A DNA stretch of 64,000 nt from assembly GCA_002633005.1 (NCBI GenBank), contig NMRA01000495.1, positions 160,837 through 224,836 of the forward strand, in the 5' to 3' direction. Below are positions 42,201 to 64,000 of the stretch, one piece after another (positions within the stretch are counted from its first letter, which is position 1; every line of letters begins with the position of its first letter). Under the pieces are notes generated by a model. That model saw nothing but the letters and a program-made list of their open reading frames with translations. It did not search any database and was not told where the DNA came from. Made by a program: the position numbers and the translations under genes. Source of the DNA: Phoronis australis. Taxonomy: Eukaryota > Animalia > Phoronida.

Positions 42201-45200
42201 AAACCCCGTTGGCAACTGCAGCGGAAACTTCCATCCTCAATCTACAACAACGGATTATTCTGTAGCAATGTCAACGAAATCAACAAGACACCTCGTGCTC
42301 TTGCTGATACATCCAACAGTCTCACAGCACTCAACATGAAATTTGAATATTCTAATCAACAGAAAAGGTTATTTGTAAAAGTGTCGCCATTTGAGGAAAA
42401 CCCTTCCAACTGGACGTGTTAAAGGATGGGAAATATCTACCTAAATTTTTAATGATCAATGAAAATGAATAGATTTCAGGGGGTCTCTGGTTTGATCCCT
42501 GGTCAGGGTATAAATCTTTTCGGAAGCTGTCTTGATGGACTTATCAAAGGCCTTTGACATCATTTAACCATCTCCACAGTAATGTACTCCTTAACAAGAA
42601 CACAATGTGAATTTACAGAAGCGTGCTTTAGTATCTGATTTTGAAGGAAAAGAAGCATGGTAATTTTATGGGAAACGGTAAAATCTCACCAATTAAGGTT
42701 ACACGTACCACTATTTCACAAAAAAAACATTAAAAACATTGGCGCTGACTATGGAAAATCCCAGACACACTTTCTCTATGAATTTTTGCAGAAGTTTTAA
42801 TACAGAAAACTTGGAGAATGCTGGTGAAAGGATTTTTCCCAATCAATGTACCTTAGTTTTAAAAACAACACTTTTGCCAAAAAGGCATGATCACGTAACC
42901 ACAAAAATGGTACAGTGTTGTGGATGACATGATTAGATTTTTCTCTGTCAATTCCTAGTTTCAGAAAATGTATTACTTTGTGAATTGACGCGTCAGTTAC
43001 TTACTAATAATAAATATTTCAAGAAGGCAAAATTTTAATTAGAGATACGCATAACCTTAAGGCCACAATATGGCCGACAGGTGAACTAACACAGAATGAA
43101 GGCTCCTATCAGTCTTAAGTTGTATACCATGATACATACCATCAGACAGTGTTTTGAAAAAGTGAAGGCATTCACAACTACAAGTTAGAAGCTTTTGAAA
43201 TCAAAAAAAACGCTAATTTTGACAATTATTTTAGTCCAAAAATGGTGAAACGTTACCATTTCCATCCCAGAATGCAACACCAGAAAAACGTTCCGATGAG
43301 TGCAATCGGTGGCCTTTTTAGCAAACAGCTACATGTAGTTACTGTATTGATAGGAAATTACTTACATAACAGTTACCGGAGTTCTGACACGGCAGCAACG
43401 AACATGGATTTGTTAGCTGACTACAGGTTGAGCCACTGTAACCTAAGAAATGGATATAAAGTGGTCTGTTTAGTTAAACAAAATAAACAGCAATAAGTGT
43501 GACTAAAACACATAGAATGCTAAACTACAAGTGTTATGGGTGAACGCCACTAACTTAGGCAACTGCGTGTCAAATAAATAATTTTGCGTGGCTGAAGTTT
43601 AATATACTTATGCCACGTATTAAAACTTTTAAAAAGATTTAATCCAAGTTGTTTCACTAACTCCCATGCAAATAAAGCTAGTCACGTGACCGTACAATAA
43701 TTGTTACACAGACACCTGACAAAGTTATTGCGTGGGCATATCGAAACGTGTCGTATCAAGTTTATTTTGATGTTTTATGGGCACAAATATCAGGGATCAC
43801 GTACTGGAGTTTTCAGTTATTCCAGCAAGGAAACCAACCATACTGTATTCGACAAAAAAAGCTTTAAACTGGTAATGAACCCGCGTTCTGTCAAAGAGGC
43901 GAAACTTTGATTTCGACTACTCACCACTATAAAATTGGTCTCCACTTCTTGTTCTTTACTCAATTGAGAAGTGAGTTCAGGGTTTGCATGGAAATGACTG
44001 TCAGTCATTTCTCGATACCCTGCTCGACGCAAAAAACGACACGCCGTGAAAAGCTAAATTCAGTTGAGGCTTTTGCAGCCCTGAAATCACCTCCAGTTTA
44101 ACTAAGGATCAGTATGCAGTCTAAATCAAAGACCTTCGGGTGGTTTTTGTGATGGAAGGCGGGTTCATAGCAGCTTTATTAACACTTCCCTCAAAAATGT
44201 GCTGGCTTAACCGGCCAAATGTATCAAATAGAAATTAAATTCTGTCAAGTCTGTGTGGACAATAAGTTAAGGTTGCGTGCGACCTTGTCTGGGTATAGAG
44301 CCCAGTAAGTACAATATCATAGATTTTAAATCAGTAAAAGAGATTCTGTAGAGGTTGGTTTTTGGCATTATACTAGTCTGCTACTAATGCAGTCATGTAT
44401 GTAATGTCTTTTTAGTAAAATTTAACACAAAAATTTCATAGTTAGCAAAAACAACAGTACCAATAACATAACTTTTGTTTGACACGAAATCTCAAAAATG
44501 CTGCTAAAATTTTCTAACCTATCATTTTGTGTTCGTTTTATGCACCTTTTGAATTTTTCCTGTTTTTGATAGCCCTTCATGCAAAACTGTAACATTTTAA
44601 AAACAATTTGTCTTGAAGAAGAGAGTATAAAGCATGATGATGTCTGAAAGTTCCACACGAGTCCATACTGCCATGTCTGAGAGAAGCTGTTCTGAAATTT
44701 GAAGGTCCTAAATAACATCAATACCTGGCTTGCAGCTACAATGATAGCCAGACCGAAGAGCTGTACAGACGCCGTTCAGACAAGGTGAGGGGTCGCAAAC
44801 TCTGGGATTAATTGGTGGTAGACTTGTTGTAGTCACGGCAACAGAAATCAACTAAAAGTAGCAAATTCACCAATATGAACATTTAGGACACAAGGGCTGC
44901 AACAAAAAACAAAACAGTGCAGGTTTCAGGCTAGGCTGTGAAAGTATAACAAATGCCATAAAGTTCGTAATTTCAAACACGTACATTGGCTGATGTGAAT
45001 TTCCATAAATGAAATTGCAGGATTTTTTGGTAAAATGTGACAATATAAATAAAAAAGTCTAGATGCCATTTTGTAAAGAAAAACAATAACAGTTAACCGA
45101 CATTACCAAAATCAAAAGTTATTATTTATTACAAAGATTTACCACGAAAATCTATAGAAGACATCTTAAAAAATTTTCATAATTGGTGCTTAAATAATGC

Positions 45201-51200: not shown

Positions 51201-54200
51201 CCAACAGAGACCTCTGTGGTGGCTGGTTCACGTGATTCTGTAGTTACACGAGCTTGTGTTGTAGATTCAGCACTTGGTGATGAAGTAACTGTTGTTGACT
51301 CTTGGTTCTAAGGAATATGCCGTATTTTAACATCAACAACATGCTGCAAATCTAACAACAAATAGAGATCAAAAACATCTAGAATGAATATTTCCACGTT
51401 CATTTAGTAATTATCCAACAAAGCAAAAGGAACAGAGAAACATTTTTTACTTTTCAAGTACATCAGATAAAAGCCATTACTCTCAATTTTGTTAAGGCTA
51501 TAGTCAGCCTTACATCGACAAGTAAAAGAATTAAAGTAAGATAAAATAAGAAATTAGAAACATTTTCTTAGGTCAAAAATAACACCTGTGAGCTTTAATC
51601 CAAATACAGCATAACCATAGAAGACTAGATGTCATTGAGTTAACTTGCCTTATTTCACAGCTAACTGACTTGCCACTAAATCAATATTTAAACTGCTGAC
51701 ACTCGCCATTGTGTGAAATGGGATGTCCCAAAGGAATAGCCACATTACCAACGAATATAACTTAAATGCAATACATCACTCAACGAGGAGACAAGCAGAT
51801 AATAACATAACACGTCTTCGGTAACCTTTGACAACAGTGGCTCCACTTCAAAACATAGTTCAACATGGTGATGTTCACCCCACCTACCGTAGTTAACCGT
51901 TCGCTTGTCTTGTCCAGTGTAGTGGCTGAAGCTTTAAACTGGCAGTTATTTCCACTGGTGCCAGCTGGACACGTGCACATATAGTAGGCTACGGTGATCC
52001 TGTCACGACGACTGAACGCTTCACACGAACCGCCATTCAGACATGGTTGACTGTGGCAGGAGTCGACTGAAAAAGATGCAAAGCTAGATAGCGTTTGAGG
52101 TGCACAGACTTCCAAAATTAATGGTGTGTAATAACAAGTGTCAGCTGGGCGGAGCCTAAACGCAATTACTACCTATAATGATAAGAATAATGACCAGTAT
52201 TCCATAAGAGGTCAGTGACCACTCGCCACTATGGCAAAAGAAACACTTCATTCACAATTACCATATAAATATTAAAGAAGCATTTAAATGATAAAAATGG
52301 ACTCGAAACACTTCCTTATATTCGGTTTCTGCCAATAGGAATGTCCACTTTCCGATATAGCAGGGACGTGATGAAATATGCCTCGTCGCAGGACAGCACT
52401 TTGGAAACTGTGTCAAGCATTTAAGGATTCAGTTTTAAGGTAAACAATTATCATTAATAATTTACTAAAGACCATTTTCTAAGTGTATAAAATGATAGTC
52501 ATTTGGCTATGGGAGAAATCATGAATGCAATGTCTTGCCAAAATAAACAGAATTTTTAAGTATTTTAAAACAATCTATGAGATTTTCAGAACAAGCAAAC
52601 CGTTACCGAAAATACACACATAGCCATACTTCTTGAAAATTTTCAGAAAATAAGTTCATCGGCATACTTTTGGTTGACCCTATTTTGGGAAATTACCGGT
52701 GCTGCAGTAATTTTAAAAATTTGACAGTGAATAAGAAGGAAACGTCAACTTAAATTCTTACCAGGCTGAAGTCCCATGACACTGTTACATGTAGCGTTAG
52801 ACTCATCTGAGCCTCCAGGGCAGTCAACCTTACCATCACACACCCAGTCACACATTGTGCAATCAGTGACAACAGGGTGACCACAGGACATCTGGCAGAT
52901 GAACGAGTTGTCTGGACATCCATCCATAACTAGTGGAAGATAAGAGATCTATTTCTAGACACTATTAAATTGGTAAAAAATGAAGTTAAAACTTTTTATT
53001 TATGCCATTTATCATGGTCTTATCTTGCTCCTTGCCGAGTCAAGAAAAACTGATCTCTGAGCTCCAGAAGAACTGTCAGTTTGTTATTTTTTTTAGATCA
53101 AGGTAACAAAATTTTACGAGCTTGGTCTAAGGAAATAACAGACTACAAGTTCTTTGCAAGACCAAAACCATTTCTCATCTGAGTAAGGAACAAGTTGAGA
53201 CCAATTTTGTAGTGGTAAGTGGTCTAAAACAGGTTTATTGCTGTTTCAAGTACTTCTAAAACAGACCGTAACTGAATTGGTTTCCTTTAACCACACCAAT
53301 AGCAGTGAGTCAGGATAATTCAACTATGGGACACAATAGACACCATGTACTATACAATTCCAATCATAGTGATATATTATTACATAAATTATTACATACA
53401 TTGACACTACAAATTAACCAATGGAGACTACAAGTAAGCACCTTGACTACAGTTAATTGTAACCAATGGAGACTACAAGTAAGTACCTTGACTACAGTTA
53501 ATTGTAACCAATGGAGACTACAAGTAAGCACCTTGACTACAGTTAATTGTAACCAATGGAGACTACAAGTAAGCACCTTGACTACAGTTAATTGTAACCA
53601 ATGGAGACTACAAGTAAGCACCTTGACTACAGTTAATTGTAATTAGCACAGATAAAACAGTGATATTACATAAGACTGTTGATGTCAGAGCGAGACCAAT
53701 TAAAAAAGTAATGCTAAATTGGTAGTTAGCTGTTTGGCTCATCACTCCATCATGGGAGCTCATTGTGAACTGTTGGACGATACCTCTCATATAAACTATA
53801 AGTGAAGAAGGGAGTAAAACGTATGTAGAAACTTTTGCTGCGACCGAGACTTGAATCGGCGTTGACCGTGCGATACTAGTAACCGAGCATCCAAACCATT
53901 CATTCAAGAGGCAACTGCCACTTGACAAATAATTTAGGGAGGCTTTTTATTGCTGTACATCACACTCGGAAGTCACTTGTCATAACACGTAATTATGCCA
54001 TTATATTGGAATATAGATGTGTCGCAAGTGTAGCAAGGTTCCCAATCTCGCCATTACAAGACACTCGCATTAACCTGCTGCTTGACATTTGATCAGGGTC
54101 TGACAGTGAATGACCCCGATCAAAGGTCAAACAGCAGCCTGTTACAGTGATCTACACGTGCCACATACTAGTAGTATCAAGATTGCAAACCTCACCCGAT

Positions 54201-55381
54201 CCAGCGCATCTATATCTATGAGTAACGGTGTATGTATTTCTCCCTCCCATCTTTACTATACAAGAGCAATGTTCTAACAGATAATTCAAATATAACTATA
54301 TCAATTGAAATCTTATCTTCCTCTCAAAGCTCTCAAGTTAATATGTAATTCCCTTGGCCTCATTCACTTAAACTACGGCATTGCAACTTGGGGTTTTAGC
54401 AACACTAAGAAACTCCAGACAGTCCAGAAGAGAATCCTTAAGAATATATCAAATTCACACTCTGCCCACACGTAAGGAACTTCACCTCCCTCTACTTCAA
54501 GACATCTTTAAAATCTCACAACAAAATTTACTTCAGCTTCCTAAGTATTTTTACGCTAACAAAAACTTCTGTAGTAACCCCATCCAATATAAACCAACCA
54601 GACACATTAAAACTCCTACATACCAAAATCAATACTTAGCTGCTATTCCGACAATACAACCCAAAATTTTAATTCCCCCGTCCAACAAATTGTCATCAAG
54701 AGCCTATATCAGATTTGAAATTCCTCACCTTTTAAACAACAACGAAATATCAGTCTCTGCTTTAAATATAATAAAAACACACTCTTTGCAAGCATTTTCC
54801 AGGTCCTTAACCAATTTTGTAATTAGCAACTATGATCCAATCTGTCATATTTCCAATTGCTTCACATGTAACAGTATCTACCGTAAATGCGTTCACAGTG
54901 CCAGTCTATTGCTTGGTTCCTGGCGTGTGGGCCATTTTCAGCGCTAATTCACTTTCTGTTCTTAAGTATATCTCATAATTCTGTATTTTCCACTTTTGGG
55001 TTATTCACTTATTCCTACTGATTATTATATTTACTTATTTTTGCATAGGGGACCTTCTTACTGGCGGTCGAAAACCTTTAGAAGGCCTCCCAATTTAAAT
55101 CACATTTATCTAATCATTGAATTGTCTTAATGTAAAAAAGTGTTTCTTTCTCTCTCTCTCTCCCTCTCTCTAACAATTAAGCTCCCAAACGTTGCAATGA
55201 ACTCAATGAGACACTGGCCGTGGACTGAGTTGAAACAACGATCAAATTACTTACACTGACATTTAACGACCGCGATGTGTATAACTGTAGCGTACAGAAG
55301 TACGGATACAGAAAACAAAATGAGACTATGAGTGTGACAATGTTTTGAATATGGCGCTTCTTGGGCTCCAAATAACGTCAT
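118..55381 (-). CDS. Large secreted or membrane EGF-repeat/laminin-G protein (EYS/Crumbs-like), 34 coding exons, 3' end outside window
   Basis: Exons joined by hand with GT-AG sites and matching phases: 55255-55381, 52762-52929, 51888-52066, 51116-51307, 49216-49368, 44725-44851, 43366-43442, 42082-42241, 37525-37674, 33659-33802, 23413-23604, 22447-22560, 19544-21094, 18189-18339, 17367-17581, 15853-16080, 14921-15034, 13614-13727, 12898-13035, 12109-12197, 11440-11587, 9925-10116, 9211-9307, 8684-8917, 7917-8089, 7392-7562, 6540-6646, 5527-5698, 4426-4794, 3262-3402, 2729-2935, 1994-2212, 1159-1267, 118-282. The frame is open throughout and the EGF cysteine pattern is continuous across junctions. 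Confidence 0.9.
1159..1267 (-). CDS. EGF/LamG gene exon 33 (LamG2)
   Basis: [36 protein letters not shown]; phase 1-2. Confidence 0.85.
1994..2212 (-). CDS. EGF/LamG gene exon 32 (LamG2 N-terminal part)
   Basis: GFHGNSHV...[14 protein letters not shown]...GDFLSLAL...KFNLG; phase 1-1. Confidence 0.9.
2729..2935 (-). CDS. EGF/LamG gene exon 31 (two EGFs between the LamG domains)
   Basis: CSNRGTC...[12 protein letters not shown]...[12 protein letters not shown]...[12 protein letters not shown]. Confidence 0.9.
3262..3402 (-). CDS. EGF/LamG gene exon 30 (LamG1 C-terminal part)
   Basis: [28 protein letters not shown]...[11 protein letters not shown]; phase 1-1; not in ORF track. Confidence 0.85.
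3623..3798. repeat. Foldback palindrome (about 78-bp arms)
   Basis: TAAATAGGTAAA...CAGAAACAGA / TCTGTTTCTG...TTTACCTATTTA with few mismatches. Confidence 0.85.
4426..4794 (-). CDS. EGF/LamG gene exon 29 (LamG1)
   Basis: [11 protein letters not shown]...[11 protein letters not shown]...YSDGEQHTV...FYIG; phase 1-1. Confidence 0.9.
5527..5698 (-). CDS. EGF/LamG gene exon 28 (EGF)
   Basis: [17 protein letters not shown]...[14 protein letters not shown]; phase 0-1. Confidence 0.9.
6540..6646 (-). CDS. EGF/LamG gene exon 27 (EGF)
   Basis: [36 protein letters not shown]; phase 1-0. Confidence 0.9.
7392..7562 (-). CDS. EGF/LamG gene exon 26 (EGF)
   Basis: KPCGDNGLC...[20 protein letters not shown]...; phase 1-1. 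Confidence 0.9.
7917..8089 (-). CDS. EGF/LamG gene exon 25 (EGF)
   Basis: [19 protein letters not shown]...[14 protein letters not shown]; phase 2-1. Confidence 0.9.
8520..8678. repeat. Imperfect (CA)n microsatellite
   Basis: CACACA/CACG runs. Confidence 0.8.
8684..8917 (-). CDS. EGF/LamG gene exon 24 (EGF)
   Basis: [12 protein letters not shown]...[11 protein letters not shown]...[12 protein letters not shown]; phase 2-2. Confidence 0.9.
9211..9307 (-). CDS. EGF/LamG gene exon 23 (EGF)
   Basis: [32 protein letters not shown]; phase 1-2; not in ORF track. Confidence 0.9.
9925..10116 (-). CDS. EGF/LamG gene exon 22 (EGF)
   Basis: PCKNGGSC...[14 protein letters not shown]...PCKNGATC; phase 1-1. 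Confidence 0.9.
10300..10505 (-). repeat. Repeat with decayed tRNA-like segment (related copy about 6044-6120)
   Basis: Minus strand TAGCTCGACGTCATAGCATTAGACTGTAAC...GCAGGTTCGAT; CCT(C/T)GATTTCAGCGAATGTC shared with 6046. Confidence 0.45.
11440..11587 (-). CDS. EGF/LamG gene exon 21 (EGF)
   Basis: [49 protein letters not shown]; phase 0-1; not in ORF track. Confidence 0.9.
12109..12197 (-). CDS. EGF/LamG gene exon 20 (EGF)
   Basis: [30 protein letters not shown]; phase 1-0. Confidence 0.88.
12898..13035 (-). CDS. EGF/LamG gene exon 19 (EGF)
   Basis: [46 protein letters not shown]; phase 1-1. Confidence 0.9.
13614..13727 (-). CDS. EGF/LamG gene exon 18 (114-nt EGF)
   Basis: [38 protein letters not shown]; phase 1-1. 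Confidence 0.9.
14921..15034 (-). CDS. EGF/LamG gene exon 17 (114-nt EGF)
   Basis: [38 protein letters not shown]; phase 1-1. Confidence 0.9.
15853..16080 (-). CDS. EGF/LamG gene exon 16 (two EGFs, 228 nt)
   Basis: [22 protein letters not shown]...[10 protein letters not shown]; phase 1-1. Confidence 0.9.
17367..17581 (-). CDS. EGF/LamG gene exon 15 (EGF)
   Basis: [17 protein letters not shown]...KCICNDGFA; phase 2-1. Confidence 0.9.
18189..18339 (-). CDS. EGF/LamG gene exon 14 (EGF)
   Basis: [32 protein letters not shown]...[12 protein letters not shown]; phase 1-2. Confidence 0.9.
19544..21094 (-). CDS. EGF/LamG gene exon 13 (1551-nt exon, about 13.5 EGF repeats)
   Basis: Lies within the 544-aa ORF 19497-21131; acceptor ttccag, donor gtaatc; phase 1-1. 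Confidence 0.95.
21200..21805 (+). mobile_element. CR1/Jockey-group LINE 3' fragment
   Basis: [25 protein letters not shown], typical ORF2 C-terminus; then AATAAA at about 21765 and a TTA/TTG-rich tail; 5' boundary approximate. Confidence 0.7.
22447..22560 (-). CDS. EGF/LamG gene exon 12 (114-nt EGF)
   Basis: [38 protein letters not shown]. Confidence 0.9.
22575..23325. repeat. Same CACTAGG-unit repeat family
   Basis: Recurring GCCACTAG / AAATTTCAT / GGAGATACAG motifs. Confidence 0.55.
23413..23604 (-). CDS. EGF/LamG gene exon 11 (EGF)
   Basis: [23 protein letters not shown]...[10 protein letters not shown]; phase 1-1. Confidence 0.9.
23890..24020 (-). repeat. Interspersed repeat family (other copies about 14015-14130 and 48845-48950 on +)
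   Basis: Shared GTTGAATTATGG(A/G)ATAGAATT core and flanks. Confidence 0.55.
25858..28632. mobile_element. hAT-like non-autonomous DNA transposon
   Basis: TIR CAGGGCTCGAC...GTCGAGCCCTG plus inverted subterminal CAGGTCGCATTT(T)GCGA repeats; no clear 8-bp TSD. Confidence 0.65.
27750..28090 (-). mobile_element. 5'-truncated non-LTR retrotransposon 3' end with RNase H motif
   Basis: [18 protein letters not shown] in frame with ORF 27781-28020; stop followed by a short AGATGACTG repeat tail. Confidence 0.7.
28905..30550. mobile_element. Kolobok-like DNA transposon remnant with decayed THAP domain (copy 1)
   Basis: TTAA TSD; TIR AGGAGAATGCCA...TGGCATTCTCCT; frameshifted VPAC...RRKWL...LRVYGRHF on minus at about 30190-30385. 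Confidence 0.8.
30612..30755 (-). CDS. Second copy of EGF exon 10 (probable allelic duplicate)
   Basis: 144-nt exon with intact splice sites; differs from 33659-33802 by a few substitutions; lies in a block duplicated across an N gap. Confidence 0.5.
30865..31460. other. Assembly gap (N run)
   Basis: 596 N between near-identical blocks 28407-30864 and 31461-33911. Confidence 0.98.
31950..33597. mobile_element. Kolobok-like element (copy 2, duplicated block)
   Basis: Same TTAA-flanked TIRs and internal sequence as 28905-30550. Confidence 0.75.
33659..33802 (-). CDS. EGF/LamG gene exon 10 (EGF)
   Basis: [48 protein letters not shown]; phase 1-1; not in ORF track. Confidence 0.88.
35945..37416 (-). 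mobile_element. Decayed THAP-encoding element, possibly Kolobok
   Basis: [11 protein letters not shown]...LHNFPTD...RAW...VC(frameshift)HF at about 36975-37123; TTAA+AG at both putative ends but TIRs weak, so boundaries are uncertain. Confidence 0.55.
37525..37674 (-). CDS. EGF/LamG gene exon 9 (calcium-binding-type EGF)
   Basis: [50 protein letters not shown]. Confidence 0.9.
39041..39167 (+). promoter_or_regulatory. Putative promoter of the nested gene (RFX X-box, CRE half-site, TATA)
   Basis: GTTACCTTGGAAAC at 39041-39054, CGTCA near 39144, TATAAAA at 39161-39167. Confidence 0.5.
39484..39642. mobile_element. MITE (Tc1/mariner-pogo type)
   Basis: Perfect 24-bp TIR CCGTAATCGTTCGGGTTAACGCCC with TA on both sides. 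Confidence 0.85.
40178..40765 (+). CDS. Nested intronic gene: 195-aa hydrophilic protein with C-terminal CaaX (CCIL) and RVxF-like motif
   Basis: Clean ATG-to-TGA ORF; acceptor at 40132-40133 just upstream; likely non-coding exon 1 ending 39264 (AAG|gtaatg); TATA box at 39161; AATAAA at 40947. Confidence 0.7.
   Translation: MSTDNVSVLNFRTESKMTSPVMSPVSFDYSNFVAIADDRLWDESAQSIGFVRDETPYPKERKTSNETGIVLSRERKISDISGLAIAEAVKNTQADHVRKAWEDIFPVTDAKRGKVQRMSVICTSHNGNRHQTADYMRETKPGVKVHVSNRTKISMASRDKGERSKTVTFSQNLTTAYSYPFQQDSQKRTKMCCIL
41040..41632. repeat. Same CACTAGG-unit repeat family
   Basis: GTCACTAGGGGAC, GCCACTAGAGGG, GGAGACACAGC motifs and a similar 3' end. Confidence 0.5.
42082..42241 (-). CDS. EGF/LamG gene exon 8 (EGF)
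   Basis: [53 protein letters not shown]; phase 0-1; not in ORF track. Confidence 0.9.
43366..43442 (-). CDS. EGF/LamG gene exon 7 (EGF)
   Basis: [26 protein letters not shown]; donor gtaagt; phase 1-0. Confidence 0.88.
44725..44851 (-). CDS. EGF/LamG gene exon 6 (stalk end plus first EGF of the array)
   Basis: [42 protein letters not shown]; phase 0-1. Confidence 0.88.
45515..45805. repeat. Degenerate tandem repeat (about 67-bp unit)
   Basis: Recurring AATAAGCGCATTAGGCAGGTATTATGTACTTTAAGTAGCGCAAATAG. Confidence 0.7.
49216..49368 (-). CDS. EGF/LamG gene exon 5 (Ser/Thr/Pro-rich, mucin-like)
   Basis: [20 protein letters not shown]...[10 protein letters not shown]; phase 0-0, good AG/GT sites. 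Confidence 0.75.
49480..51097. repeat. Degenerate ~145-bp tandem-unit element (CACTAGG...AAATTTCA), possibly Helentron-associated (HINE/DINE-like)
   Basis: About 10 recurring CACTAGGNGG units; terminal stem-loop TATGCACCTGCATA-AAAA-TATGCGGGTGCATA at 51063-51094; relatives at about 22575-23325 and 41040-41632. Confidence 0.6.
51116..51307 (-). CDS. EGF/LamG gene exon 4 (Thr-rich, mucin-like)
   Basis: [43 protein letters not shown]...; phase 0-0, donor gtgagt. Confidence 0.75.
51888..52066 (-). CDS. EGF/LamG gene exon 3 (isolated EGF)
   Basis: [15 protein letters not shown]...[16 protein letters not shown]; phase 1-0. Confidence 0.88.
52762..52929 (-). CDS. EGF/LamG gene exon 2 (LDL-receptor class A module)
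   Basis: CPDNSFIC...[20 protein letters not shown], LDLa CDGxxDC..SDE signature; phase 1-1. Confidence 0.85.
53416..53640. repeat. Minisatellite, 45 bp x 5
   Basis: AACCAATGGAGACTACAAGTAAGCACCTTGACTACAGTTAATTGT, near-perfect copies. Confidence 0.95.
54300..55170 (+). mobile_element. CR1-group (L2/Crack-like) LINE 3' fragment with (CT)n tail
   Basis: HTLP..KEL.L..LQDI...THSLQAFS...[13 protein letters not shown] in ORF 54381-54947; CT microsatellite tail; related tails at 57586-57692 and 57900-58022. Confidence 0.65.
55255..55381 (-). CDS. EGF/LamG gene exon 1 (signal peptide)
   Basis: ACAATG with an in-frame upstream stop; [42 protein letters not shown]; donor gtaagt in phase 1 matching the LDLa exon. 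Confidence 0.75.
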
Positions 55382-56515
55382 TGTTCCGTAATTTTAACAC
55401 TTATTAACCGTCACACAAGATAGTTATTATGAGCCTTCTTGCGGCTAGACGGGTTGAAGCAGACCACATAGCCAACAAACGCGATTTTTGCCGTTCAACT
55501 TCGTCAGCATCGTCAAAAGTTTACATCGCGACTTCTCCATTCAGCTGTTCGGTTGCGCATCGGTTGCTGCCGAAGTAAATGCAGCGCTCCCTGTCGCTCG
55601 GATGAGGTCATCGGTTTCCAGGTGTGTCAAAAATGAATAAAGTGCTATAACCCTAGAATATTCTCATATAACAAAAAAAAATAGAAATACGTCAAAATAC
55701 TGCAATAATCTGGTTCAATTTTGACTTTTCTTCAATTTGTCTTGACGTTACATCGCAAAGGTCGAACCGAAACCTTTTATTTTGTGTTCAGAGCGACACA
55801 CTTTGGTCACGCTTCAAGGTAAAGTGTTGGAGGCTGGTCTCCGAACAAGTGAAATGAAGGTTTGTACTTCATGGTCGACACAATGTTTGGAAGTCCTTGA
55901 TTTAGTTTACCAGTTTCATCCACTGAATAACATGTGTTGAGCCGCGTAGATGTTTCTAGGGTTTTATCATTTCGCAGAGACGTGCAGTAGCCAGCTAGCT
56001 GTAACCCCTCACCCTCGGTTGGCCGGTTAGGCCAGGGGCTTACAGCCGCTTACATGTTACACTGTTCCCATCGCTTTCTTAACGAATTTCGTTCTGTGTA
56101 TTTTAAACGGGGAAAATTAGGTCACTGATTAAGAGTTTTTACCTCGTCAAAAATACATTCCATACTTAAAACTATCACTTAGAAAGGCGCTTACTTTCTT
56201 TTCTGAAGTCTTCAGTGTTCCTTTCTACTACTTCCACATATGATCATATCTTCGTTTGACGAAGCTTAGTTACGAGAATTAAGGTGACTTTGGTGAAGAA
56301 TTCCAACTCCACTTTTTTGGTCACCGATAATCACAGAGTATTTCAACTGAGGCACTGAGTTAGGCAAAGTCTAGTGCGAGACTGAGCGAAGGGCGTGATG
56401 CTAGCGCGTGACACTTGCAAAACAGCATGGGAAGGTATCAAGTGAAATTCGTAAGATTGGTGTCCCGTGGAGTTTTTATTTCTCAGCGTGCGTGATTTCA
56501 TATAACTTCCTCAAA
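55382..56515. promoter_or_regulatory. Divergent (head-to-head) promoter region of the EGF/LamG gene and ATPAF1
   Basis: About 1.1 kb between the opposite ATGs; YY1-like CAAAATGGC at 56512-56520. Confidence 0.55.
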
Positions 56516-56793
56516 ATGGCAACTGGTAGGAGAAACTCGAGCAAACCGCGACAGGTTTTCATCGATTTGTTCAAATTATCTTGACTGAATCATCTCCAGA
56601 CTTATGGCATGTGTTAATTATAACTCCATGTGCATATGTGCATATATGCATGTTTCATTTGCTTTTATTTCTTGTATTTTGAAATTCGTAACATTTTGTG
56701 GGGATGTACTATCACCCCTGTATGCCTGCTGCTTACAGTCAGCAGTGAAAGCTTTGCAGTTATGCACCCATCACAAACCTTTTCTATTTGCAG

Positions 56794-56993
56794 GCTGCAA
56801 GGATGCTTCATCTTGCACTGTGTCAACTCAAGCAATGTCAGTTGATGACTCGGATTACAACATGTTCAGTGCCTGGACAGCTCTGTTCACAGTTCAACAG
56901 ACACATGAGTAAAGCAGCTGAGGACGTCGGCAAGGAGCTGAACGACAACCCGTTCCTCGATAAATACCTGTCCAAGATACAAAGTCTTAAAGA
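56794..56993 (+). CDS. ATPAF1: Second copy of the ATPAF1 presequence exon (probable allelic duplicate)
   Basis: 200-nt exon near-identical to 60342-60541; possible upstream exon 56516-56554. Confidence 0.5.
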
Positions 56994-58175
56994 GTGCGTT
57001 TAGCCATGGGTTATTGTACATGAACCACCGATTCTGTGTGTTCTCAATGCACGAGATCTGTGATGTTGCAGACAAACCACAACATCTGTACTACTGGTGC
57101 CACCTGCTCAGTTAGCTAGAACTGATAATTTTTGTTGCGTCGTTAGAGCTTGAAATTTACAATTTCATTTCCCGAGCTATTGCCAAAAATATTCACGATA
57201 AAATGAATTACTGTACGATCTATATAATGCAGCATAGTTTTTGCAATTTTATAAAAATACCAACTGATAATGGAACCACAGTGAGGCGGCATTGGCACAT
57301 ATCATTGAACTCATTTTGGCTAGAGCTGATGGACTATTTTATTAGTGACGGATTTTATGACTTAGAATTCACACGTGAATTCTTGGCACCCTGGCAGGTA
57401 GTCTACACACTGTTGTGGTTTCAGCCAGGTGTTCAGGTTCAAGTAAATGCAACATCGCAAGGTCAGTTCTTTGCGCCCACGGTGTAGGGGTACATGTTGA
57501 AAGATTCAAGTGCAGTATTTGGGTGAATAGTTTGGTCCAAACTTTCTGGACGTGCTTCATTTTTGTGCAAGTTATGTGCCTAGCNATTACCTTTAGAAGG
57601 CCTCCTAATTGAAATCAAATTTTAATCTATGTATTATTATTATGTACTGTAAATAAAAGCGTTTTCTCTCTCTCTCTCTCTCTTCTCTCTCTCATATTTC
57701 CAATTGCTTCACATGTAACAGTATCTACATGCGTTCACAGTGCCAGTCTATTTCTTGGTTCCTGGCGTGTGGGCCATTTTCAGCACTAATTCACTTTCTG
57801 TTCTTAAGTATATCTCATAATTCTGTATTTTCCTCTTTTGTGTTATTCACTTATTCCTACTGATTTTTATTTATATTCTACTTATTTATTTTTGTATAGG
57901 GGACCTTCTTAATGGCGGTCGAAAACCTTAAGAAGGCCTCCCAATTTAAATCGCATTTATCTAATCATTGTATTATGTCTTAATGTAAATAAAAGTGTTT
58001 CTTTCTCTCTCTCTCTCCCTCTAACAATTAAGTTCCCAAACGCTGCAATGAACTCAATGAGACACTGGCCGTGGACAGTCGTGGACTGAGTTGAAACATA
58101 GCAGGTTTGATTGTGTCTTGATGCTGATCCTTAGGTATTAGTTTTCTGTGCAAATACAACGATCAAATTACTTAC

Positions 58176-58302
58176 ACTGACATTTAACGACCGCGATGGG
58201 TATGACTGTCGCGTACAGAAGTACGGATACAGAAAACAAAATGAGACTATGAGTGTGACAATGTTTTGAATATGGCGCTTCTTGGGCTCCAAATAACGTC
58301 AT
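58176..58302 (-). CDS. Second copy of signal-peptide exon 1 (probable allelic duplicate)
   Basis: Near-identical to 55255-55381 (one H-to-P change seen) in the block duplicated across the n at 57585. Confidence 0.5.
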
Positions 58303-58911
58303 TGTTCCGTAATTTTAACACTTATTAAGCGTCACACAGGATAGTTATGATGAGCCTTCTTGCGGCTAGACGGGTTGAAGCAGACCACATAGCCAACAAA
58401 CGCGATTTTTGCCGTTCAACTTCGTCAGCATCGTCAAAAGTTTACATCGCGACTTCTCCGTTCAGCTGTTCGGTTGCGCATCGGTTGCTGCCGAAGTAAA
58501 TGCAGCGCTCCCTGTTGCTCGGATGAGGTCATCAGTTTCCAGGTGTGTCAAAAATGAATAAAGCGCTATAACCCTGGAATATTATTATATAACAAAAAAA
58601 ACTAGAAATGCGTCAAAATACTGCAATAATCTGGTTCAATTTTGACTTTTCTTCAATTTGTGTTGACGTTACATCGCAAAGGTTGAACCGAAACCTATTA
58701 TTTTGTGTTCAGAGCGACACACTTTGGTCACGCTTCAAGGTAAAGTGTTGGAGGCTGGTCTCCGAACAAGTGAAATGAAGGTTTGTACTTCATGGTCGAC
58801 ACAATTTTTGGAAGTCCTTGATTCAGTTTACCAGTTTCATCCACTGGATAACATGTGTTGAGCCGCGTAGATGTTTCTAGGGTTTTATCATTTCGCAGAG
58901 ACATACAGTAG

Positions 58912-59544
58912 TGTAGTAATAGCCGAGATAACCCGACCCGGGGATCGAACCAGCGACCCCCATAAAAAACCGGCAAGCGTGCTAACCATTCAGCTAATAG
59001 GCAATTGCCCGTTAGCGAGTAGCTAACAGAGGCTCATATAATGCACCGGAACCAAATCTACAACATTCCCCCCTTTCCTACGGAACTGGCACGCGACAGG
59101 AAGGTAAACACCAGGATGTCTCGCATACAGGTCATCAACGTCCCTTGGTACCTTTACCACCACAACACAGGTGAACACAAGGTCGTCTCTCATACAGGTC
59201 CTTGACTCCTGGAACCTTCCACGCATGCTGTCCCAAGGTCCGTGGGTACTAGTTGGCAGTGCTTCATCGGTAGATCATCCGTCCTGCCGACTAGGCCAAA
59301 TGTTGTATTCCTACAGGTTCACTAGTTAGGCACAAGAGTACTTACTTTTATGAAGATATAAGTCAGTCAGTTGACGCCAAGCGGAGCAACCATAGATGAC
59401 TCGTCTTGCCGATTCTTGAAAAAAAACCATCCGACAGTGGCGCCAACGACTTATATAGGAGACATACGGGGAACACACAAAAACAGACCAATCACAAGAC
59501 GCCACAGGAAAAACAAAGGGCCAATGATGTTGCCGATTACAACA
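58912..59544 (-). mobile_element. Non-autonomous LTR/TRIM-like insertion with two dissimilar terminal units
   Basis: TG...CA ends; GTAG TSD (58908-58911 and 59545-59548); empty site at 55987-55990; tRNA-Ser-like PBS 59282-59298; PPT 59066-59078. Confidence 0.85.
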
Positions 59545-60341
59545 GTAGCTAGCCAGCTGTAGCCCCTCACCCTCGGTTGACCGGTTAGGGGCTTACAGCC
59601 GCTTACAGCAAGTTACACTACTTCCCATCGCTTTCTGTACGAATTTCGTTGTGCGTATTTTAAACGGGATGTAGGGAAAATTCGGTCACTGATTAAGAGT
59701 TTTTACCTCGTCAAAAATGCATTCCATTCTTAAAACTATCACTTAAAAAGGCGCTTACTTTCTTTTCTGAAGTCTTCAGTGTTCCTTTCTACTACATATG
59801 ATCATATCGTTATTCGACGAAGCTTAGTTACGAGAATTAAGGTGACTTTGGTGAAGAATTCCAACTCCACTTTTTTGGTCAACGATAATCACAGAGTATT
59901 TCAACTAAGTCACGTGGGTTAGGCAAAGTCTAGTGCGAGACTGAGTGAAGGGCGTGATGCTAGCGCGCGACACTTGCAAAACAGCATGGGAAGGTATCAA
60001 GTGAAATTCGTAAGATTGGTGTCCCGTGTAGTTTTTATTTCTCAGCTTGCGTGATTTCATGTAACTTCCTCAAAATGGCAACTAGTAGGAGAAACTCTAG
60101 CAAACCGCGACAGGTTTTCATCAATTTGTTCAAATTATCTTGACTGAATCGTCTCTAGACTTATGGCATGTGTTAATTATAACTCCATGTGCATACATGC
60201 ATGTTTCATTTGCTTTTATTTCTTGTATTTTGAAATTCGTAACATTTTGTGGGTATGTACTGTCACCCCTGTATGCCTGCTGCTTACAGTCAGTGAAAGC
60301 TTTGCAGTTATGCACCCATCACAAACCTTTTCTGTTTGCAG

Positions 60342-63115
60342 ACTGCGAGGATGCTTCATCTTGCACTGTGTCAACTCAAGCAATGCCAGTTGATGACTCG
60401 GATTACAACATGTTCAGTGCCTGGACAGCTCTGTTCACAGTTCAACAGACACATGAGTAAAGCAGCTGAGGACGTCGGCAAGGAGCTCAACGACAACCCA
60501 TTCCTTGATAAATACCTGTCCAAGATACAAAGTCTTAAAGAGTATGTTTAACCATAGGATATTGTACATGAACCGCCGATTCTGTGTGTTCTCAATGCAT
60601 GAGATCTGTGATGTTGCAGACAAACCACATCTGTACTACTGGTGCCACCTGCTCAGTTAGCTAGAACTGATAATTTTTGTTGCGTCGTTAGAGCTTGAAA
60701 TTTACAATTTCATTTCCCGAGCTATTGCCAAAAATATTCACGATAGAATGAATTACTCTACGATCTATATAATGCAGCATAGTTTTTGCAATTTTATAAA
60801 AATACCAACTGATAATGGAACCACAGTGAGGCGGCATTGGCACATATCATTGAACTCATTTTGGCTACAGCTGATGGACTATTTTATTAGTGACGGATTT
60901 TATGACTTAGAATTCACACGTGAATTCTTGGCACCCTGGCAGGTAGTCTACACACTGTTGTGGTTTCAGCCAGGTGTTCAGGTTCAAGTAAATGCAACAT
61001 CGCAAGGTCAGTTCTTTGCGCCCACGGTGTAGGGGTACATGTTGAAAGATTCAAGTGCAGTATTTGGGTGAATAGTTTGGTCCAAACTTTCTAGACGTGC
61101 TTCATTTTTGTGCAAGTTATGTGCCTAGCTGACTCCTATAAAATGCCACTACATGACCAATGTGCTATTGCAACAGTTTTGGAAGTTAACTCAGTTGTCT
61201 TTTGTGATACCCTGATATTTGTTTGTATGAACGACATTGTTAATAATTTGGTCCACAAGTGTAATACACAGTAGTTTAGGACACAGTATGGCAGAACATT
61301 GAAATTTGGTTTTATAAAAATGCCTAAGAAAAATAAAGAAACTAGAAGAAAACTTAACGTCACAATTTGCCTTGGTAATGTTGTACTTCTGTCATCAGCA
61401 AACACGCACGGTGAAACTTTGAGCATTTTTCACTTTGAAAAATGGAATTATATTACTATGTTAGGAATCATTTTTGTGGAAACTTCACTGTGACAATGTA
61501 ATCTTATGGTGCAACAGGCATGTATTGTAATGGCGCGGATCCTGGTGTTGGTTTTATAATCATTTCTCTTGCAAGTGTATAATGTGTCCCAAATTCTTTT
61601 GTAGGACTTCACCTGAGGAGTATAACACCAAGTTGGAAGAGTTAAATAAAGCAAAGACAAAGTACAGGTCTGAAGATGAAGGGGATGTGAAACAGAATAA
61701 ACCCAAAGCTGCGATGACTACCAAGTCAGTTGATGTCTCAAGTCAACCAACCCCTGTCAAGCCAAAGGTGACTTACTCGAGCATTTTGTTGAAGTTCCTT
61801 TAAGACCTGTGCATGGAGAAATCTTCACTTATGGCGTGGAGACGGCAAATTCCAGCGCATAATTAAACATTCTGACAACCCATTTCTGTAGCAGCTATTT
61901 TGCTAGGGTACGCTTGTAAGCTTCTGAAGATACTTGTGAAACTCGCGCTTTCTTTGGTCTGGTCTTGCGTGATTCTGCTTTTTGACGAGTTTCCCGCTCT
62001 CATCAATTTTTGTTGTCAGAATGCATTTTTTAATTAGACCACTTTCTGCAATGAAGTTCTACCTTACTTTGATCAGATTTCTTAGTGATTGCTGGGCATG
62101 AGGAGACAGGAAAATTGTTGTTTAAGACTGAGCTCTATTAGTTGTAATGCTCACCATATAATTTAATATGTGCCAAAATTTGTTTATCGGTGCATTAATC
62201 AATTTATTGCAGAGTGCGTATATGCTTTGACTTTTTTTTTGTTAAAAAGTAATTCTGGTGATGAGGAAACAAACTGGCTGGTTGCATAAATGACCCCCGC
62301 GTGGACAGCATATTTATCGGGCTAAACGCTAGCATTTTCAACATTGATGTGAACTAGGCATAAGACTTTAGTACATAAACCCTGTTGAATGTTGGAACTT
62401 GAAAAGTTGCGTACCGTCACATGGGAACTGATATCCTGCCTTCCACTGATTGCTATTTGTCATTTCGTTTATATTTTTCTTTGTCCCATTCAGTGTTCGA
62501 AATGTTTCTTTACAGAGTTTAGACGATGTTTTAAAGTTAGACATGATAAAAGACAAGTCTCGTAATGAAATTGAACAGGTAAGACAATGTTTGCCTGCTG
62601 GTTGGTTTCACGTTGAAGCGCAAATTTTCTGAGTGGTTTTCTATGTTTTTCATTTTATTTGATAGCTTGTTTATTTTTCTATAAAGTATAACATTTCCTT
62701 ACAACACGATCAACTACAGCTGGCATAGAAGTCACGGCAATGTCGTTTATTCATGATTTCAAACTGGCTTGCAGTTCAATAGGACCTGTCACTCTTGAGA
62801 TTTTTGCAGCAAAAAAATCTTGGCTGATGCAGCAGAAGTAGCGACCGTCCTGTGTGTTTACCTAAGTCATTTTTTCCCATTATTCAACATGCTAGTTTAG
62901 CTGTTCCGTGGCGGCCATTTTGGAATTAAAGTCGCAAGCTCACTCCCAAGATGCTAGTGAGATCTTGCGTCACACCAGCGTGATGTTGCAAGGCATTGCC
63001 CTTTTTGCGCGGACACCTGCTGTGTTGCTGTATTGCTTTGGATGGCTACATGGTATTCTTTCAGATTTGGAAACAATATCACAGTAGGAGGTCTGGCCTG
63101 TTTGCAGTGTTAGAG
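60342..63115 (+). CDS. ATPAF1: ATP synthase mitochondrial F1 complex assembly factor 1 (ATP11), 5' part; continues past window
   Basis: Exons 60342-60541, 61605-61767, 62516-62578, 63065-63115 (possible exon 60075-60113). An acid-free presequence precedes ELNDNPFLDKYLSKIQSLKETSPEEY...SLDDVLKLDMIKDKSRNEIEQ|IWKQYH, matching ATPAF1 motifs NPF..KY..KI and EI.QIW.QY as I recall them. Confidence 0.85.
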
Positions 63116-63537
63116 GTAGGTGATGGTTTGATGATGTGGCAATCTAGTAATGTAACTAGGAGTAGTTTTCTGTAGTCTGTTGTTCAGGGGTTTCACTGCA
63201 GCTGTACTTGTATCCTCTGTTATGCACAAAAGCTGTGGCAATGCAATAGAGGTGGAATGTGTAAGGTCACCTTGCTTTAATAGTCCAAGAGACAGCACCA
63301 TTTTGGCTCTAATTCTTGCATTTCTCTCTGGGAAACTTCATCAAAACATAAGTTTTGACTACGAAATCACCAGTTAATCTCCGTTTTAGAAAGAAAAAAC
63401 TGTCGGGATGCTGGTATGTGTGGTTCTCATATTCTGTGGCATGAGCTTCAGATTTTAAGAAAGTTTTTGTCGAATTTTGTCAGTTTGAACGCAAGCAAAT
63501 CGGCCACCGCCACATTGTCTCCAATTTGGCGCAGTTA

Positions 63538-63638
63538 CTAGGGGTGTGACATCCGTTGCTAGGGGTGTGACATCCGTTGCTAGGGGTGTGACATCCATTG
63601 CTAGGGGTGTGACATCCGTTGCTAGGGGTGTGACATCC
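63538..63638. repeat. Minisatellite, 21 bp x about 4.8
   Basis: CTAGGGGTGTGACATCCGTTG units. Confidence 0.95.
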
Positions 63639-63802
63639 CTCTCCATCACTATAATGGATGTATTAGAGAGGGGAATCTTGTGGTGTATAGTGAAGGAAGA
63701 AAATGTCTTAGAATGGACTATAATATTACTTTTAGAGAACTTCACTGAGTGTGTTTGTGCATGTAACAGAATGGTAGCAGCCCATCGTTTGCACAAACTT
63801 CA

Positions 63803-63954
63803 TTGAAAACACGACTAAACTTTTTGTTTGAAAGCTTGACATAGAGTCACTCGTAGTGTCGAAAGTATCTCCTTTCTTCAGAAAGTAGATTGTTTCAACA
63901 CTACAAGCGACTCTGTATCAAGCTTTGAAACAAAAAGTTTAGTCGTGTTTTCAA
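63803..63954. repeat. Foldback palindrome (about 65-bp arms)
   Basis: TTGAAAACACGACTAAACTTTTTGTTT... mirrored by ...AAACAAAAAGTTTAGTCGTGTTTTCAA. Confidence 0.85.
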
Positions 63955-64000
63955 CAAAGTAACAGAATGGACAACCATCTGAATTTCCCTTTCGTCTTCA

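What the first reader, a model, noticed from the sequence alone, without database searches (positions are those of the whole stretch)
58912..59544. LTR-type retroelement whose two 'LTRs' are unrelated, one Pol II-like and one tRNA-like
Seen, reading the minus strand: unit A (59544 to 59301, TGTTGTA...TACAACA, with ATTGG boxes and TATATAA at 59451-59457); TT; PBS TGGCCTAGTCGGCAGGA (one mismatch to the complement of the tRNA-Ser 3' end); a 235-bp non-coding interior; PPT GGAAAGGGGGGAA; unit B (59065 to 58912, TGTTGTA...TACTACA). Unit B holds a GTTAGC-N5-GCTAAC palindrome, an A box TAGCTGAATGG and a B box GGTTCGATCCC. A GTAG TSD flanks the whole element and the sister block has the empty site. 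Established: reverse transcription makes the two LTRs identical, and small-RNA-carrying non-autonomous LTR elements are known (Cassandra with 5S; Helenus/Ajax with 5S or tRNA-like parts). Inference: this A-PBS-PPT-B unit is either a solo 'composite LTR' from an alternating A/B tandem element or a recombinant of two TRIM families, which could be an undescribed two-LTR design.
Basis: partly seen in the sequence, partly recalled or inferred. Interest (0 to 1): 0.78.

Follow-up and report, generated by a model that had tools for sequence, protein, structure and literature searches.

The report
Hybrid retrotransposon with two unrelated LTRs
This 633-base jumping element has the left end-repeat of one retrotransposon family joined, at the primer site both share, to the body and right end-repeat of an abundant tRNA-bearing mini-element; it is likely a one-off hybrid made when the two families were copied in the same particle, not a new self-spreading design.

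Summary
The anatomy is real: A-PBS-interior-PPT-B, with a 4-bp TSD and an empty site. A and B are unrelated. Public reads of this species show both parents as ordinary elements. B plus this interior is a high-copy new family of the Helenus kind (tRNA-derived LTR): B-PBS-interior junctions occur in all four DNA runs (one sample) and both RNA runs laid. A is far rarer (depth over the interior is about ten or more times higher). Elsewhere A is followed by a different interior and preceded by a different PPT. The switch lies at the end of the shared tRNA-Ser PBS, where this copy matches the tRNA better than either parent as displayed. Best reading (0.62): intermolecular plus-strand transfer between co-packaged RNAs, then normal integration; likely a dead end. 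The 'sister block' lies across a scaffold gap and is probably the other allele. The scan noted a like PBS fusion in a fungus (e1-9831002, unchecked). New variant of a known kind; interest 0.45.

The parts
59545..59548 (-). 5' target-site duplication (CTAC; GTAG on +)
   Evidence: single copy at the empty site near 55986-55989
59301..59544 (-). Unit A: complete 244-bp LTR of a low-copy, Pol II-type LTR family (CCAAT boxes, TATA at 59457-59451, CATAAA at 59352-59347); serves as 5' LTR here
   Evidence: own interior and own PPT in other copies
59282..59298 (-). tRNA-Ser primer-binding site, 16 of 17 match; the family switch lies at its 3' end (about 59285-59282)
   Evidence: junction variants (table 5c; table 7)
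59066..59300 (-). 235-bp non-coding interior of the B (Helenus-type) family, with a 32-bp direct repeat (59200-59169, 59133-59102, 84%)
59066..59078 (-). Polypurine tract abutting unit B
58912..59065 (-). Unit B: complete 154-bp Helenus-type LTR with palindrome (59027-59011), A box (58996-58986), T6 run (58969-58964), B box (58951-58941); 3' LTR here
   Evidence: layout like bivalve Helenus LTRs by eye
58908..58911 (-). 3' target-site duplication (CTAC)
   Evidence: junction present in X1 and X3 contigs
55985..55990 (.). Empty site in the 94-97% identical block across the N at 57585, probably the other allele
   Evidence: X4 record 25 equals this block

Best explanation
The element is a hybrid of a low-copy LTR family (unit A) and a high-copy Helenus-type mini-element (interior plus unit B), joined at their shared tRNA-Ser primer site and likely made by an intermolecular plus-strand transfer during reverse transcription, then likely integrated as one piece. 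Shown: both families exist with their own PBS-side and PPT-side junctions; they share TGTTGTA starts, TAC(A/T)ACA ends, a purine tract ending GGGGAA and a 14-nt PBS core; one TSD flanks the hybrid. Inferred steps: (1) RNAs of the two families were packaged in one Gypsy-type particle; (2) each made its own minus strand; (3) the A-family plus-strand strong-stop DNA (whole LTR A plus a copy of the tRNA end) annealed by the PBS to the Helenus minus strand instead of its own; (4) extension both ways gave A-PBS-interior-PPT-B; (5) integrase accepted both ends because the termini are near-identical. With unrelated LTRs it has no shared R region, so it would be a dead end unless its transcript jumps to a co-packaged partner again, which would swap LTRs.
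For: B-PBS-interior junction: 8 of the 12 rows shown in table 5c, in X1-X4 (one sample), top depth 204; 9 contigs in X1, 29 reads in X6, 26 in X7 at 59282. B has many unrelated flanks at both ends: agreement 0.37-0.40 for 15-33 contigs, equal to the 0.37-0.38 simulated for 27-31 unrelated sequences. Summed X1 depth: flank about 31, B 2e4-2e5, interior 1e4-3e4, A 3e2-1.3e3. A plus 14-nt PBS core runs into other sequence in 6 X1 contigs (agreement 0.66; 99th percentile for unrelated 0.54). A is preceded by a different purine tract in X6 (6 reads) and X7 (14 reads). At PBS positions 15-16 this copy reads GG like tRNA-Ser; all displayed B-family junctions read a single A there and the 6 A contigs leave the match there, which places the switch where a tRNA-copied plus strand ends. 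A TSD marks a single integration; recombination between neighbouring insertions gives none (PMC1950507 passages). Plus-strand DNA copies the LTR and part of the tRNA and transfers by the PBS (PMC3187697 passage). This copy has near-private letters (59235: 5823 of 5873 X1 depth differ; 59043: 75521 of 75725), so it is not one of many identical copies.
Against: One copy only; the PBS signature is n=1 and could come from an A copy with a full PBS that was not displayed (18 of 53 loose-end rows, 8 of 94 pieces shown). The second transfer is described as intramolecular in retroviruses (PMC5086612 passage), so this must be a rare event. The reciprocal product (B-PBS-A interior-A) was not looked for. 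No displayed contig or read bridges A into this interior, so the junction is not confirmed outside the assembly. Summed contig depth is not a copy number. The G-to-C change at 59294 fits neither parent nor tRNA and is taken as a later mutation.
Confidence: 0.62

Rival explanations
1. Same two parents, joined at DNA level before or during integration: two finished cDNAs recombined at the 14-nt PBS core, or integrase paired the left end of an A-family cDNA with the right end of a Helenus cDNA and the gap was closed by microhomology at the PBS.
For: Gives the same layout and a TSD; the termini are near-identical and the PBS core is shared.
Against: Does not predict the tRNA-like GG at PBS positions 15-16; 14 nt is short for homologous recombination (general knowledge).
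Confidence: 0.17
2. One reading: an alternating master (A-interior-B-second interior-A...) or a 'composite LTR' element exists, and A-interior-B is its solo form or a recurring, spreading product.
For: About 8 single-copy depths of sequence identical to the first 83 bp of A (X1 record 8, depth 351) show a young A group whose downstream part was not resolved; a second PPT precedes A; most rows of the read tables were not displayed.
Against: A-PBS leads to other sequence in 6 contigs; this interior follows B in all displayed LTR-PBS junctions; A is far rarer than the interior; no 59544-to-59066 joint shown; this copy's A allele at 59412 is at about single-copy depth or absent.
Confidence: 0.1
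3. Post-insertion replacement: a normal B-interior-B copy inserted, then its 5' LTR was overwritten by an A LTR through conversion using the 7-bp terminus and the PBS as microhomologies.
For: Keeps the TSD and puts the switch at the PBS.
Against: Needs two exact switches on 7 and 14 nt of homology between otherwise unrelated sequences.
Confidence: 0.06
4. Assembly artefact or collapse: the true allele is longer and was joined at the PBS.
For: The assembly has gaps and likely haplotype duplications here; the A-side junctions were not among displayed pieces.
Against: A starts exactly at the TSD that B's confirmed junction closes; 14-17 nt is below usual assembly word sizes; even a longer allele would still have unlike outer ends.
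Confidence: 0.05

Closest known systems
Animal Helenus (TRIMp3), Kojima 2024, PMC10886601 (read: parts 1-4 of 6 of the text, searched passages, three motif searches of the supplement)
   Same: Under 1 kb, non-coding, tRNA-type A box (TRGCY..YGG) and B box (GGTTC) in the LTR, PBS on a tRNA 3' end, PPT, 4-bp TSD. Helenus-2/3_PiNo LTRs have a like GTTAG..CTAAC palindrome before the A box (seen by eye).
   Different: This copy has one Helenus LTR and one foreign LTR. No listed family has this PBS ('tggcgtagtcggc' and 'gtagtcggc' 0 hits), so the parent B family is new relative to that supplement. 'Chimer' and 'hybrid' have 0 hits in text and supplement.
Template-switch complexes of Triticeae, rice and maize, Sabot and Schulman 2007, PMC1950507 (passages)
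   Same: Chimera of two co-packaged RNAs integrated as one unit with a TSD.
   Different: Those switch at R in the first transfer, have three LTRs and matching outer LTRs; here two unrelated LTRs and a switch at the PBS.
Chimeric TRIMs of sugar beet, PMC13570524 (passages)
   Same: Hybrids among non-autonomous families, for example TRIM-08 with LTRs donated by TRIM-01 or TRIM-05; template switching reshuffles LTRs and interiors.
   Different: Plant; described as additional LTRs; the passages seen do not map a switch to the PBS or involve a tRNA-derived LTR.
Recombination during reverse transcription within a family (Ty1, ONSEN), Drost and Sanchez 2019, PMC6894440 (passages)
   Same: Co-packaging and strand transfer between two RNAs.
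   Different: Their scheme has intermolecular first transfer and copy choice and ends in two identical LTRs; an intermolecular second transfer between unrelated families is not in the passages seen.
Gypsy elements primed by tRNA-Ser (loci L002, L014)
   Same: The same 17-nt PBS two bases after the LTR end, followed by gag and PR-RT-RH-IN.
   Different: Other organisms, LTRs unrelated to A and B (only the PBS matched); they show the helper type, not the helper.

Membership tests
Helenus (animal TRIMp3) | tRNA-derived A and B boxes in the LTR | tested here: met
   Unit B A box 58996-58986, B box 58951-58941 fit the paper's motifs. ARAGORN finds no tRNA and Rfam no tRNA hit, in line with a promoter-only remnant.
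Helenus (animal TRIMp3) | Short (under about 1 kb) and non-coding | tested here: met
   633 bp, longest ATG frame 67 codons; B-interior-B would be about 543 bp (inferred from junctions).
Helenus (animal TRIMp3) | PBS on a tRNA 3' end and a PPT | tested here: met
   16 of 17 match to tRNA-Ser; PPT 59078-59066.
Helenus (animal TRIMp3) | 4-bp TSD | tested here: met
   CTAC both sides, once at the empty site; one locus only.
Helenus (animal TRIMp3) | Two matching LTRs | tested here: not met
   Not met in this copy. The parent family has B before the PBS and after the PPT, so the parent, not this copy, is the member.
Helenus (animal TRIMp3) | Pol III transcription from the LTR | not tested
   RNA reads were laid only on 59232-59591, not on B. 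This copy has T6 between the boxes; 31509 of 54350 X1 depth lack two bases there.
Helenus (animal TRIMp3) | Mobilised by a Gypsy with the same primer | tested here: inconclusive
   The same PBS heads Gypsy gag-pol in other organisms; no helper identified in this species.
Conventional LTR family (unit A parent) | A followed by PBS and its own interior; A preceded by its own PPT | tested here: met
   6 X1 contigs at 59285; 6 and 14 RNA reads at 59544. That both belong to one element is inferred.
Conventional LTR family (unit A parent) | Encodes gag-pol (autonomous helper) | not testable with these tools
   Only 30 letters beyond A are shown by the read tool; no genome held; no metagenome match to A-PBS.
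   Depth caps them at a small share of interiors and none was displayed, but they could not be counted.
   No such joint among those shown; A-PBS leads elsewhere in 6 contigs.

The most novel reading that the evidence does not exclude
A-interior-B is not a single accident: hybrids switching at the PBS recur at many sites (or stem from an alternating A/B master), A is the LTR of the Gypsy helper, and such hybrids are the working intermediate by which Pol III mini-elements trade LTRs and promoters with their helpers, in animals as in the fungal case the scan noted.
Probability: 0.2. Interest if true: 0.75.

Novelty: new variant of a known kind. Interest (0 to 1): 0.45.

Why it matters
Kojima 2024 states that how a TRIM stays tied to its autonomous partner is not known, and partners are guessed from PBS likeness. 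A hybrid switched at the PBS and flanked by one TSD would be a physical record that two families shared a particle. It names the partner family directly and gives a search rule for finding helper-parasite pairs in any genome. It would also show a second strand transfer between unrelated RNAs, a step described as intramolecular. Practically, LTR finders that need similar LTRs miss such copies. If it is a single dead-end copy, its value is as one clean example plus a new Helenus family.

Tried and rejected
No genome is held, so no genome-wide classing of copies. A/B homology rejected. Recombination between two neighbouring insertions rejected: a TSD is present and no host DNA is lost. Nesting plus deletion rejected: it would leave a piece of B at the left or A at the right. 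tRNA gene or ribozyme in B: none (2 chance Rfam hits, E 4 and 7). Metagenome scan for A end plus PBS: 0. Broader PBS scans gave 19 metagenome and 1 viral locus; none matched A, B or the interior beyond the PBS. Host placing with an EGF-repeat exon failed (best 42% identity): an invertebrate animal by inference only. RNA reads over A differ from this copy (cleanest reads with up to 8 differences in 59382-59412) and say nothing on this locus. biv-TRIM (PMC6934838, part 1 of 5) has other sizes and no clear PBS. Paper searches for a described case: 0 hits; listings showed none by title or abstract start. Repbase and Dfam are not available, and Du 2010 (LTR swapping) and Maiwald 2021 were not held, so absence from print is not established. 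The Helenus supplement was searched by motif, not read whole.

Full report
Observation. On the minus strand the window holds a 633-bp insertion: unit A (59544-59301, 244 bp), TT, a PBS (59298-59282), a non-coding interior, a PPT (59078-59066) and unit B (59065-58912, 154 bp), with CTAC on both sides. A and B share only their terminal 7 bases and chance words (local score 16 against 17.1 +/- 2.4; 742 of 1000 shuffles as high). The 94-97% identical block to the left has the empty site with one CTAC and no lost host bases. That block is cut off by an N at 57585, and the window's other duplicated pair also flanks a gap, so I read it as the other allele; this is inferred. Public contigs hold the B 3' junction (X1 record 1, X3 record 17) and the empty form (X4 record 25, whose 5 and 13 substitutions and 16 gap letters equal the sister block's). 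The two A-side junctions were not among the pieces displayed.

Unit B. It has the A-box and B-box motifs that define Helenus LTRs (PMC10886601), and by eye the same palindrome-then-tRNA layout as Helenus-2/3_PiNo. It folds better than shuffles (z -3.7) but is no tRNA gene. Animal Helenus make 4-bp TSDs, as here. No family in the supplement has this PBS.

What the reads show. No genome is held, so I used public runs of the same species label. X1-X4 are one sample and may be the window's source, so they are not independent support. Summed X1 depth is about 31 on the flank, 2e4-2e5 on B, 1e4-3e4 on the interior and 3e2-1.3e3 on A; this is a rough ranking, not a copy number. B has unrelated flanks at both ends (agreement 0.37-0.40, as simulated for unrelated sequence). 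B followed by the PBS and this same interior is seen in 8 of 12 displayed rows of table 5c, in all four DNA runs, and in 9 X1 contigs, 29 X6 reads and 26 X7 reads (X6 and X7 are other samples of a second study). So B-interior-B is the normal, abundant element. A has its own context. In 6 X1 contigs A and a 14-nt PBS core run into other, partly shared sequence (agreement 0.66 against a 99th percentile of 0.54). In 6 X6 and 14 X7 reads A is preceded by a purine tract unlike this PPT. One 1432-bp contig has A's 3' end with no PBS match after it. No joint from this PPT to A was displayed (15 of 48 and 12 of 22 rows shown). This copy carries near-private letters in B, interior and A (59043, 59106, 59235, 59412). 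Against over-reading: only 18 of 53 loose-end rows and 8 of 94 pieces were shown, a contig over the A-interior junction would likely be shorter than those listed, and a young A group (83 bp identical, depth 351) is unresolved downstream.

The junction. The PBS matches the complement of the tRNA-Ser 3' end at 16 of 17 bases (PMC3299991 oligo). The B family leaves the tRNA match after 14 bases in every displayed junction, and the 6 A contigs leave it at the same place. This copy keeps it to base 17 and then continues in the B-family interior. Plus-strand strong-stop DNA consists of the LTR and a copy of part of the tRNA and transfers by the PBS (PMC3187697). A whole foreign LTR, tRNA-like bases and a switch at that point are what a transfer of A-family plus strand onto a Helenus minus strand would leave. 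It is one copy, so the signature is suggestive only.

Mechanism. The two families share their LTR starts, near-identical ends, the last bases of the PPT, and the primer, which suggests one machinery (inferred). The same PBS heads gag-pol elements with Gypsy domain order in metagenome loci L002 and L014 from other organisms, in line with Kojima's Gypsy link for animal Helenus. I put 0.62 on intermolecular plus-strand transfer in a shared particle followed by normal integration; 0.17 on a DNA-level join of two cDNAs at the PBS; 0.10 on an alternating or composite-LTR master; 0.06 on later overwriting of the 5' LTR; 0.05 on mis-assembly. A TSD argues for a single integration, since recombination between neighbours leaves none (PMC1950507). 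The second transfer is described as intramolecular (PMC5086612), so the event would be rare. Lacking a shared R region, the hybrid would not copy itself by the standard route.

Comparison. The parent of B and the interior meets the Helenus features tested; this copy fails the two-matching-LTR feature and is not a canonical member. Chimeric LTR elements are known (PMC1950507, PMC13570524, PMC6894440; passages only), but those passages describe switches at R or in the interior, or extra LTRs. Searches for a case with two unrelated LTRs switched at the PBS gave no hit or no evident match; Repbase, Dfam and two relevant papers were out of reach, so this is weak. The scan's note e1-9831002 reports a fungal Helenus fused to Copia helpers at the primer site; I had written the same reading before seeing it and did not check its data.

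Verdict. A real and well-formed hybrid insertion, probably a one-off and probably heterozygous, plus a new Helenus-type family. New variant of a known kind, interest 0.45. It would rise to about 0.75 if such hybrids recur and A proves to be the helper's LTR.

Noticed in passing
window 54841-57584 / 57688-61129 and 28407-30864 / 31461-33911: Both near-identical block pairs (91-97%) flank a scaffold gap (N at 57585; 30865-31460), which suggests haplotypes assembled in tandem, not true duplications.
   Followed up: partly
window 59549-59763: The element inserted beside a hairpin at the edge of another high-copy repeat (summed X1 depth up to about 2e4 over 59612-59763); the repeat was not identified.
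   Followed up: no
window 59477-59544: A related LTR shares only the first 68 bp of A and then diverges (7 X6 reads); one X1 contig joins this part in opposite orientation to the A end and PBS.
   Followed up: no
window 58964-58969: A run of six T between the A and B boxes would stop Pol III in this copy; over half of the family depth lacks two bases there.
   Followed up: partly
window 4412-52172, minus strand (large exon 19500-21131): Exons of an EGF-repeat and laminin-G-like protein gene; best database match 42%, so the host has no close relative among the proteins searched.
   Followed up: partly
window 3623-3798 and 63797-63960: Long inverted repeats (79 nt at 96%; 81 nt at 86%), MITE- or foldback-like.
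   Followed up: no
window 53415-53642 and 63534-63638: Minisatellites of 45 bp and 21 bp.
   Followed up: no
window 42479-42511: Isolated B-box-like stretch, 82% like unit B over 34 bp; perhaps a SINE or Helenus remnant.
   Followed up: no
L002 2157-7566, L014 675-5792; also L006, L008, L010, L013, L016, L019: Metagenome contigs with the tRNA-Ser PBS after an LTR-like end; L002 and L014 carry PNMA-type gag and Gypsy pol, and L014/L015 holds two copies in tandem.
   Followed up: partly
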